Shown: positions 25,127-26,593 of the stretch, piece by piece
How positions within the stretch are numbered: the stretch's first letter is position 1
Layout of the letters: every line of letters starts with the position of its first letter
Assembly: GCF_033153115.1 (NCBI RefSeq)
Contig: NW_026889809.1
Coordinates: forward strand, 992,001-1,056,000
DNA from: Saccostrea echinata
Taxonomy: Eukaryota
Direction: 5' to 3'
DNA length: 64,000 nt
Position numbers and translations under genes: made by a program
The notes under the pieces: model-generated
Told to the model about the DNA's origin: nothing
The model's database searches: none
The model's input: only the letters and a program-made list of their open reading frames with translations

Positions 25127-26593
25127 ATGAGCCTGGACACCAGCACAATAAATGCCATTGAACATTGGGATGCGTGGGTGGAGTCTAGAAATAAGACCCT
25201 GGGGGGTCCAGTGATTCCTCTGTGTAAGGAGCTCCGGACTTTCACCCCACAGCAATTAAACACTATAGTACCTATGTTTGTGAAGGAAGTTGAAGTTAAA
25301 AATGGACCAACCTCTAGAAAGTCCATCAAACGAATCCTCTCAAAGATTCAACAATGTCTCGATTCACAGGAAGGAGGCTGTATAAAACAACATAGATTAT
25401 TGACTTGTAAAGTTAAACAAACCATCACAGATAGGGTAGCTGTAAAGCACAACTATGTAACTTCAGAAATGGAGAAAAAATTATGGCAGGTTAATGTATT
25501 AGATTTAATATCTAATGAAGGACTCAGCTATGCAATTTACTTCTATAATGTTAAAATATTTGGCATTACTTCTGCAAAAGATCATCAAAGTCTGAAACCT
25601 CACTTCTTCAAGTTTTCAGAAAATGCATGTGGACAATATGTTTTGCTGAATTGTGCAATGCTTTCATCTTTTGGCTTATATAAAGAGCACTTCTGTAGAA
25701 AAAGAAAAACTTTGAATAATGAGGTAGAAATACCTTGTAAGATCATCCATTATGAAGACCCCGAGAATCCAAGGTCATATTACAAACTTCTAAAGAAAAA
25801 CTTGCACAGCATTGCTCAATATAATAAAACAAACTTCTACTTAAAACCGTGTGATAATACTGAGGGATTTACTAATAAGGTGTTTGAAAAGAAAAAAATT
25901 AAATCCTGTGTTCAGGACATGATGAGGAGTGCAGGTCATGGAAAACCATACAACAATCAGTCGCTGAGGCTTTTGATGGAATGTGGAGACAGTATTTTAA
26001 AATCAGGTCCTGGATATGAATATGTGCTTTGTGCTAGAAGAAGCACCACTGCCAACCACAGTATACTTAAAGAAATCAGCAAGAAACTGGATCCACCCCT
26101 GCCCCCTCAGCCAGAGACACCTGTTCTTCCATCACCAGTCCCTGTAGTCACCGTGACTTCTCTTGCACCTACTAATACTCAAGAGGACAGACCTGTTCCT
26201 CAGCAGCATAAAATCTATAAAAGTAGGCATGCACCACCTAAATCACTCAACCCTCCTCCTCAAAAACGTCTGCGAATTGAGGAGATGTCTTGCACTGCTC
26301 CTTCTCAGGAGGTACTTCCGGCCAGTGCAGCAGACAACCAGTCGGGAGATGTTACGGTAAAGACTGAAGCGTTAGATTACAATAATAACCCTGAAGCTAC
26401 CTCCCAAGAAAGTCCTGTGGTGGATACTTCCCCACAATGTCACCTGAGAACCAATGTTGATATCCGTCATGGCAGTTTTAACATCAGACTGGCTGAGCTT
26501 CTCCCACCAGGGGCTAAGGATGTCCACATTGAGGGGACCAAAAGTAATACAGAGGAACAGATCCTATTAAAGATTGATTTCAGAGTTGGGTGA
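25127..26593 (+). CDS. DUF3504 (Crypton tyrosine-recombinase-derived; ZMYM/QRICH1/KIAA1958-like) domain protein, 488 aa, single coding exon
   Basis: Intact ORF with motifs typical of DUF3504 proteins: W-x-x-W-x3-RN, SEMEKKLW, GLSYAIYFYNVKIFG-x5-H, ENPR, FYLKP, MMRSAG, YNNQSLR. Pro-rich C-terminal extension. Recognised from motif memory, not from a search. Confidence 0.8.
   Translation: MSLDTSTINAIEHWDAWVESRNKTLGGPVIPLCKELRTFTPQQLNTIVPMFVKEVEVKNGPTSRKSIKRILSKIQQCLDSQEGGCIKQHRLLTCKVKQTITDRVAVKHNYVTSEMEKKLWQVNVLDLISNEGLSYAIYFYNVKIFGITSAKDHQSLKPHFFKFSENACGQYVLLNCAMLSSFGLYKEHFCRKRKTLNNEVEIPCKIIHYEDPENPRSYYKLLKKNLHSIAQYNKTNFYLKPCDNTEGFTNKVFEKKKIKSCVQDMMRSAGHGKPYNNQSLRLLMECGDSILKSGPGYEYVLCARRSTTANHSILKEISKKLDPPLPPQPETPVLPSPVPVVTVTSLAPTNTQEDRPVPQQHKIYKSRHAPPKSLNPPPQKRLRIEEMSCTAPSQEVLPASAADNQSGDVTVKTEALDYNNNPEATSQESPVVDTSPQCHLRTNVDIRHGSFNIRLAELLPPGAKDVHIEGTKSNTEEQILLKIDFRVG

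What the first reader, a model, noticed from the sequence alone, without database searches (positions are those of the whole stretch)
25127..26593. Catalytically dead, probably domesticated Crypton recombinase gene
The ORF is intact while nearby transposons are decayed. The tyrosine-recombinase catalytic positions appear substituted: the FGxR arginine region reads FGITSAKDH, HxLR reads NQSLR, and the GH motif is missing (SGPGYEY). It has gained a Pro-rich linker, an NLS-like QKRLR, a SUMO consensus VKTE and a compact C-terminal segment of about 50 aa that I do not recognise. Crypton domestication is established for ZMYM2/3/4, QRICH1, KCTD1 and KIAA1958; this looks like a possible independent mollusc case acting as a nuclear regulator.
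Basis: partly seen in the sequence, partly recalled or inferred. Interest (0 to 1): 0.7.

Follow-up and report, generated by a model that had tools for sequence, protein, structure and literature searches.

The report
Oyster gene tamed from Crypton transposon
This is a spliced, single-copy oyster gene built from a jumping gene's DNA-cutting enzyme that has lost its cutting residues; it likely works as a DNA-associated regulator, and its unnamed tail likely ties it to similar dead-enzyme genes of clams, mussels and sea slugs.

Summary
Confirmed: a 488-aa ORF with DUF3504 and a tyrosine-recombinase fold. The first Arg, both His and the Tyr are lost, while Crypton copies in the same genome keep them. 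It is single-copy, spliced from non-coding exons head-to-head with an EPB41-like gene, and has full-length counterparts in Saccostrea cucullata (61%) and Ostrea edulis (36%). Constraint is moderate (rough dN/dS about 0.45), strongest in the tail; one run carries a start-codon loss.

Correction: the tail is probably not an oyster gain. It resembles a tail found only on dead DUF3504 proteins of Mya, Mercenaria, Mytilus, Aplysia, Elysia and Plakobranchus. One old mollusc domestication versus several is unresolved. The NLS-like motif is not conserved. Function is inferred, untested; synteny could not be tested.

The scan noted dead Crypton genes on other DNA before (worm, sea hare, urchin, tunicate); sequence look-ups found none like this family. 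New variant of a known kind.

The parts
17775..17834 (+). Non-coding exon 1 (5' end not known; at least 58 bases seen)
   Evidence: GT..AG joint 17832->22116 (cut +2) in one contig of run X3; donor context
22118..22205 (+). Non-coding exon 2, holds three short upstream ORFs
   Evidence: GT..AG joint 22202->25048 (cut +3) in contigs of X1, X3, X4; sequence
22802..23077 (+). Minor alternative 5' UTR exon
   Evidence: two GT..AG joints in one contig of depth 2.7 in X4
25051..27277 (+). Last exon: short leader, whole ORF and 3' UTR (end not known; contigs reach 27277)
   Evidence: in-frame stop at 25079-25081 excludes fusion to upstream exons through this acceptor
25059..25130 (+). 23-codon upstream ORF whose TGA overlaps the main ATG (ATGA)
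   Evidence: read from the sequence
25127..26593 (+). 488-aa ORF, intronless (P0001)
   Evidence: whole ORF in one contig of X4
25127..25456 (+). Residues 1-110: helical core-binding-like domain (Pfam QRICH1 domain, weak, in the two other oyster proteins); fastest-changing part
   Evidence: model helices; Pfam PF25561 E 5e-4 and 3e-6, below cut-off, for P0002 and P0003; 49% identity to P0002
25457..26101 (+). Residues 111-325: DUF3504 / recombinase catalytic fold with dead site (T148 at 25568-25570, Q278 at 25958-25960, no GH, no Tyr)
26102..26341 (+). Residues 326-405: Pro-rich, predicted disordered linker with QKRLR
   Evidence: pLDDT under 50 at 342-409; 17 Pro in 80 residues
26342..26590 (+). 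Residues 406-488: VKTE plus beta-rich tail; residues 436-488 are the best conserved part and resemble the tail of other mollusc dead DUF3504 proteins
   Evidence: strands in model; 87% identity to P0002

Best explanation
This is a spliced, single-copy oyster host gene whose last exon encodes a CryptonA-type tyrosine recombinase that has lost the residues needed to cut DNA, and it likely works as a non-cutting, chromatin-associated adaptor. Shown: fold, loss of catalytic residues, single copy, splicing, retention in three oysters, uneven purifying selection. Inferred: the dead recombinase fold still grips DNA or DNA-bound proteins, as the related fold of QRICH1 does in a zinc-finger coregulator complex; the disordered linker with a conserved psi-K-x-E motif could be SUMO-modified; the conserved beta-rich tail would be the partner-binding or self-assembly module. 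Also inferred: the tail is older than oysters and marks a mollusc group of dead DUF3504 genes.
For: DUF3504 above cut-off. Model pLDDT 72.6; best Foldseek match QRICH1 in Zincore 9hjt_H E 4.6e-7, then Cre and lambda integrase; VIA Z 12.8 (Cre, rmsd 7.2, 251 aligned) and 12.7 (QRICH1, rmsd 17.3, 237 aligned) over residues 1-303. Catalytic columns read T,S,Q,R,Y,S against R,K,H,K/R,H,Y in intact proteins and in own-genome copy L003. Own genome: 1 full match; the other 10 of 11 are 23-30% identical partial Crypton-like ORFs; the ORF DNA and the tail match only here. GT..AG joints in 3 of 4 runs from 2 studies (X1 may be the source sample). Counterparts of full length in S. cucullata and O. edulis, and the Ostrea protein finds this locus first in the own genome; oyster trio is a 100/100 clade. 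Tail 87% identical to P0002 against 49% for residues 1-110; 5 of 6 listed changed tail codons in organism C are silent. Tail profile finds 23 proteins; all 11 new ones carry a recombinase domain; 24 of 24 aligned tail-bearers lack the first Arg and the GH motif. Ostrea and this protein's tails rank 1 and 2 of 139 C-termini against a 21-sequence non-oyster tail profile (scores 25.7 and 19.5, null maximum 15.4).
Against: No functional data. Constraint is modest: 65% identity between two Saccostrea-like proteins, rough whole-gene dN/dS about 0.45, N-terminal domain about 0.7, within-species pN/pS 0.41 (9 amino-acid-changing, 6 silent, by hand), and a start-codon change in the only contig of run X3 at that place (zygosity unknown). 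Vertebrate DUF3504 genes are mostly more conserved (human-zebrafish 47-90%, PMC3212892 Table 4). No Crassostrea/Magallana protein appeared. NLS-like motif not conserved. Tail homology is moderate: S. cucullata tail ranks only 12 of 139; with longer windows and split groups it beat 50 of 50 shuffles for gastropods but only 49 of 50 for mussels and 45 of 50 for clams; a profile of the three oyster tails found no other protein.
Confidence: 0.6

Rival explanations
1. Independent domestications from one tail-bearing Crypton lineage: the tail was part of an active CryptonA subfamily, and oysters, mussels, clams and gastropods each froze a copy separately. The oyster gene is then an oyster-only domestication, but the tail was inherited, not gained.
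For: Oyster, clam-type and gastropod groups are each 100% clades with unresolved relations; the mussel protein sits beside an Arg-retaining fragment at 93/83. All tail-bearers as one clade: p-AU 0.049. Replacements at the first Arg differ between groups (T, V, A, I, H, F, W, Y). This locus is the best own-genome hit for only 1 of 4 family queries, by 2.4 bits. P0021 and P0025 keep all six catalytic residues and end in a look-alike tail; own-genome L003 and others end in a shorter beta tail.
Against: The look-alike tails of intact proteins are not significant (score 15.4, equal to the null maximum; 2 of 50 shuffles as high). No intact recombinase was among the 23 tail hits. Oyster plus clam-type (p 0.35) and oyster plus clam-type plus gastropod (p 0.32) clades are not rejected.
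Confidence: 0.35
2. A host-retained repressor of transposons: the dead protein binds Crypton ends or joins active recombinase multimers and blocks their movement, which would explain fast evolution of its DNA-facing domains.
For: The genome holds many Crypton-like copies, some near-identical and with intact motifs (67 matches; ORFs). The recombinase part evolves faster than the tail.
Against: Identity to resident Crypton copies is only 23-30%, low for shared target sites or mixed multimers; the conserved part is the tail, which resident copies do not match.
Confidence: 0.12
3. A once-domesticated gene now decaying or dispensable, or an old transposon copy transcribed by chance from the EPB41 promoter.
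For: Start-codon change in one run, several upstream ORFs in the leader, high pN/pS, no Crassostrea hit.
Against: An open frame of 408-488 codons in three oysters at about 0.5 silent changes per site within Saccostrea-like species alone; frame-keeping indels between the three proteins; tail dN about 0.07.
Confidence: 0.12
4. A non-autonomous or still mobile Crypton copy.
For: Intronless recombinase-like ORF; a 300-bp dispersed repeat lies just upstream at 24710-25013.
Against: Single copy of ORF DNA; catalytic residues lost; the repeat lies in intron 2 and its 39 other listed copies match that 300-bp part only; no flanking inverted repeat pair among the 25 longest listed.
Confidence: 0.02

Closest known systems
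Crypton-derived DUF3504 host genes KCTD1, KIAA1958, ZMYM2/3/4, QRICH1, WOC and the tunicate gene (Kojima and Jurka 2011, PMC3212892; read: part 1 of 7, section 10, passages, supplement search)
   Same: DUF3504 with lost catalytic Tyr and His; expressed; conserved between species; longer than the domain itself.
   Different: No MYM zinc fingers, BTB or Gln-rich region; recombinase part is N-terminal and followed by an unnamed beta tail; second Arg kept in oysters while the first is lost; faster evolving; the paper lists for molluscs only WOC fragments (Aplysia, Pinctada) and a Lottia Crypton.
QRICH1 in the Zincore complex (PDB 9HJT; Bianchi et al. 2025 seen only as PDB title and as a citation in PMC13538652; the paper itself not held)
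   Same: Best Foldseek match; dead recombinase fold in a DNA-bound complex.
   Different: 17-18% identity, sequence E 0.19; works-like analogy only, no sign of orthology.
CryptonA transposons of animals and Glomhopper (PMC3212892; PMC13465315, abstract and passages read)
   Same: Same domain pair; nearest sequence relatives.
   Different: Those keep R-H-R/K-H-Y and occur in many copies; this gene is single, dead and has host-type non-coding exons.

Membership tests
Crypton-derived (domesticated) DUF3504 host gene | DUF3504 / tyrosine-recombinase domain of CryptonA type | tested here: met
Crypton-derived (domesticated) DUF3504 host gene | Catalytic tetrad lost | tested here: met
   R to T, H to Q, no GH, no Tyr; second Arg kept
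Crypton-derived (domesticated) DUF3504 host gene | Single or low copy, not dispersed | tested here: met
   (loose first look; counts are lower bounds)
Crypton-derived (domesticated) DUF3504 host gene | Transcribed as a host gene | tested here: met
   GT..AG joints into the ORF exon in contigs of 3 of 4 runs, 2 studies; run kind is a guess
Crypton-derived (domesticated) DUF3504 host gene | Intact counterparts in other species under purifying selection | tested here: met
   dN/dS only roughly estimated, about 0.13-0.7 by region
Crypton-derived (domesticated) DUF3504 host gene | Orthologues at a syntenic locus | not testable with these tools
   no other mollusc genome is held
Crypton-derived (domesticated) DUF3504 host gene | Nuclear, DNA- or chromatin-binding function | not testable with these tools
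   inferred from fold only
Active CryptonA transposon | Intact R-H-R-Y tetrad | tested here: not met
Active CryptonA transposon | Multiple similar genomic copies | tested here: not met
WOC/ZMYM/QRICH1 orthologue | MYM zinc fingers or Gln-rich N-terminus ahead of a C-terminal DUF3504 | tested here: not met
   only DUF3504 in Pfam; in-frame stop upstream of the ATG within the exon
WOC/ZMYM/QRICH1 orthologue | Clusters with WOC/ZMYM in a tree | not tested
   no WOC/ZMYM sequence was in the trees
Mollusc tail-bearing dead DUF3504 group (defined here) | C-terminal tail homologous to the clam/mussel/gastropod tail | tested here: inconclusive
   favoured; weaker:
Mollusc tail-bearing dead DUF3504 group (defined here) | One clade on the recombinase domain | tested here: inconclusive
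   p-AU 0.049 with mussel, 0.32 without

The most novel reading that the evidence does not exclude
A single Crypton domestication in the common ancestor of bivalves and gastropods created a mollusc-wide regulator family, so far undescribed, made of a dead recombinase, a SUMO-type linker and a new beta-rich tail domain; this oyster gene is its fast-evolving member. It would stand beside WOC/ZMYM as one of the oldest animal Crypton domestications.
Probability: 0.4. Interest if true: 0.62.

Novelty: new variant of a known kind. Interest (0 to 1): 0.45.

Why it matters
Crypton domestication is known, so the kind of event is not surprising. What is new, as far as my paper searches reach, is a mollusc case and an unnamed tail domain seen only on dead recombinases from oysters to sea slugs. 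It gives a defined gene set to test whether dead recombinase folds are reused again and again as DNA-bound coregulators like QRICH1, and whether the tail predisposes Cryptons to capture by the host.

Tried and rejected
No run is on record as RNA; the splice evidence rests on contig joints. Run X6 was listed as a holder but laid nothing on the ORF. Tail fold: model of residues 430-488 alone is weak (pLDDT 67, pTM 0.40); wide structure search best Z 2.3; no Pfam or PDB sequence match for the tail alignment; Atlas gave no usable feature hit, and structure look-alikes under its bar (MinE and others for this tail; SipL/SPOCS/CotE, TM 0.54-0.63, for the Mercenaria tail): leads only. An alpha-crystallin-like reading came to mind from recalled motifs and got no match in those searches. 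Tail homodimer prediction: no answer, score 0.12 against mark 0.32, alignment not used; no evidence either way. Fusion as an alternative tail of an upstream host gene: rejected for the observed acceptor by the in-frame stop at 25079-25081. Homology of the short tail of active Cryptons, or of the P0012/P0021/P0025 tail, to the oyster tail: not significant. The pN/pS of 0.55 printed used wrong counts; 0.41 is the corrected value. Look-ups of earlier findings by sequence (P0001, P0145, P0187, P0022) and bivalve words found nothing. Trees used 54 and 33 of 162 aligned domains, chosen by hand; WOC/ZMYM, KCTD1 and KIAA1958 were not included.

Full report
Observation. The ORF at 25127-26593 (+) encodes 488 aa and matches DUF3504 at residues 111-246 above Pfam's cut-off. 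An AlphaFold model on a 32-sequence alignment (mean pLDDT 72.6) shows a helical N-terminal domain, a recombinase catalytic fold, a disordered linker (342-409) and C-terminal strands. Its best Foldseek match is QRICH1 in the Zincore structure (E 4.6e-7), followed by Cre and lambda integrase; VIA-align gives Z 12.8 for Cre and 12.7 for QRICH1 over residues 1-303. In an alignment of 162 domains the six catalytic columns read T, S, Q, R, Y, S, where intact proteins and the own-genome copy L003 read R, K, H, K/R, H, Y. The Tyr residues of SGPGYEY lie 21 and 23 residues after the His position, against 34 in intact P0018 (counted), and the Ostrea protein has deleted that stretch. The enzyme is dead by sequence.

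Gene, not transposon. In the 923-Mb own genome the protein has one full match; the other 10 of 11 are partial, 23-30% identical, and several of them carry intact motifs over two ORFs. The ORF's DNA and the tail match only this place. Contigs of three of four runs (two studies; run kind guessed, X1 may be the source sample) join 22205 to 25051 with GT..AG ends, one joins 17834 to 22118, and one low-depth contig adds an exon at 22802-23077. These exons are non-coding for this frame, since a stop lies at 25079-25081. The first exon lies about 1 kb from the first exon of a FERM-domain EPB41-like gene on the other strand (joint 15204-16768; domains), so the two are head-to-head; a shared promoter is an inference. 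A tetraspanin-like exon lies downstream (below cut-off).

Relatives and selection. Two searches of the 90% clusters gave only three proteins: this one, S. cucullata LOC134245221 (61%) and a cluster holding O. edulis LOC130054080 (36%). The Ostrea protein finds this locus first in the own genome, and the three form a 100/100 clade. The host is therefore an oyster close to Saccostrea (inference). PMC12021676 (passages read) quotes about 180 million years for divergence within Ostreidae; I found no figure for the Saccostrea-Ostrea pair itself. Identity to P0002 is 49% for residues 1-110, 71% for 111-180 and 87% for 436-488. Run X10 (organism C) laid in pieces at 80-90%; 33 of its 112 differences were listed, giving 18 changed and 9 silent codons, with 5 of 6 silent in the tail; 12 of the 18 changes agree with P0002. 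Using P0002's residues as a stand-in, four laid segments give dN 0.09, dS 0.5, ratio 0.18, biased low because only alike segments lay; the whole-protein minimum dN of 0.22 over that dS gives about 0.45. Within the species, 9 amino-acid-changing and 6 silent variants were listed (pN/pS 0.41 by hand). One is a change of the start codon in the only contig of run X3 at that place; the same base removes the stop of a 23-codon upstream ORF that overlaps the ATG. So the gene is constrained but not tightly, and least so at its N-terminus. No Crassostrea or Magallana protein came up, which I cannot explain.

The tail. Among the best 150 of 770 HMMER hits, several long proteins ended in a similar segment. 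A profile grown from one of them gathered 11 proteins without any oyster sequence; named members are from Mytilus edulis, Mya arenaria, Elysia marginata, Aplysia californica and Plakobranchus ocellatus. A search with the tail alignment alone (14 rows, oysters included) returned 23 proteins; the 11 new ones, Mercenaria among them, all carry a recombinase domain, and 24 of 24 aligned tail-bearers lack the first Arg and the GH motif. Clam-type, mussel and gastropod tails are clearly homologous (hhalign 97%). The oyster link is weaker: probability 52% and above 100 of 100 column shuffles with the pooled core; ranks 1, 2 and 12 of 139 real C-termini for the Ostrea, this and the S. cucullata protein; mixed results with split groups; nothing from an oyster-only profile. 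A psi-K-x-E motif followed by DY or DF precedes the tail in oysters and in clam-type proteins, though such motifs are common in nuclear proteins (own knowledge). Most clam-type proteins come from unnamed sources; only Mya and Mercenaria are named. Named gastropod proteins begin at the catalytic fold and lack the N-terminal domain, in line with weak constraint on that domain in oysters.

One origin or several. Trees of the recombinase region (54 rows quick, 33 rows careful) resolve each group but not their relations. One clade of all tail-bearers is borderline (p-AU 0.049); without the mussel protein it is not rejected (0.32), nor is oyster plus clam-type (0.35). This locus is the best own-genome hit for 1 of 4 family queries, and none of those four searches showed a tail match elsewhere in the genome. 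I put one old domestication at about 0.4, repeated capture from a tail-bearing Crypton lineage at about 0.35, and the rest on the tail likeness being chance.

Mechanism. Shown: fold, dead site, host-type transcript, conservation pattern. Inferred: a non-cutting DNA or chromatin clamp with a protein-binding tail, by analogy with QRICH1, which PMC13538652 (passages read) calls part of a zinc-finger coregulator complex, and with the regulatory roles that PMC3212892 proposes for DUF3504 genes. The NLS-like QKRLR is not conserved, and RKRK at 191 lies in an insert of this species only, so nuclear import is not established.

Known and new. Kojima and Jurka 2011 (PMC3212892; part 1 of 7, section 10, passages and a supplement search) describe four domestications plus a tunicate candidate, and for molluscs only WOC fragments; I could not check whether their Aplysia accession belongs to this group. 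Krysinska et al. 2026 (PMC13465315; abstract and passages) note that most animal genomes, molluscs included, have several DUF3504 genes. Searches for Crypton, oyster, tyrosine recombinase and domestication together (0 papers), DUF3504 with mollusc (4 listings), Crypton with bivalve (20 listings, titles and abstract starts only) and domesticated transposon with mollusc (1 listing) showed no description of this gene or tail; subscription journals are mostly not covered. Verdict: a real domesticated Crypton gene, a new variant of a known kind, interest 0.45.

Noticed in passing
window 25127-25130: Run X3's only contig here changes the third base of the start codon; the same base is part of the stop of an overlapping 23-codon upstream ORF. 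Next in-frame Met is residue 50. Zygosity unknown.
   Followed up: partly
window 16769-17834: About 1 kb between the first exons of the EPB41-like gene (-) and this gene (+). It holds two clusters of GGCGCGAA/TTCGCGCC words (17085-17170, 17677-17760), the second bounded by a 13-bp inverted repeat and followed by TGACGTCA; run contigs with loose ends near 17080 and 17270 suggest a dispersed element.
   Followed up: no
window 24710-25013: 300-bp dispersed repeat in intron 2, 39 other copies listed at 74-82% identity, ending about 40 bases before the splice acceptor.
   Followed up: partly
window 27660-31760: 40-bp minisatellite array with a 41-bp-arm palindrome at 29087-29168 and a third copy of one arm at 28674-28699.
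   Followed up: no
window 24242-24539 and 26950-27413: 32-bp tandem repeat in intron 2 and a 27-bp AT-rich repeat inside the 3' UTR.
   Followed up: no
proteins P0008, P0009, P0010, P0152: Long proteins with two or three tandem, eroded recombinase domains from unnamed sources.
   Followed up: no
proteins P0021, P0025, P0012: A group with its own C-terminal beta tail; P0021 and P0025 keep all six catalytic residues in 650-730-aa proteins, candidates for active domesticated recombinases or for the donor lineage.
   Followed up: partly
G000 C14:5615014 and C25:28836543; C29:7543089; C9:1021180; C45:5764687: Other stop-free DUF3504-like frames of 399-516 aa in the own genome, one pair with identical scores; possible young copies or further host genes.
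   Followed up: no
No Crassostrea or Magallana counterpart surfaced although those genera are well sequenced (own knowledge); loss or fast divergence.
   Followed up: no
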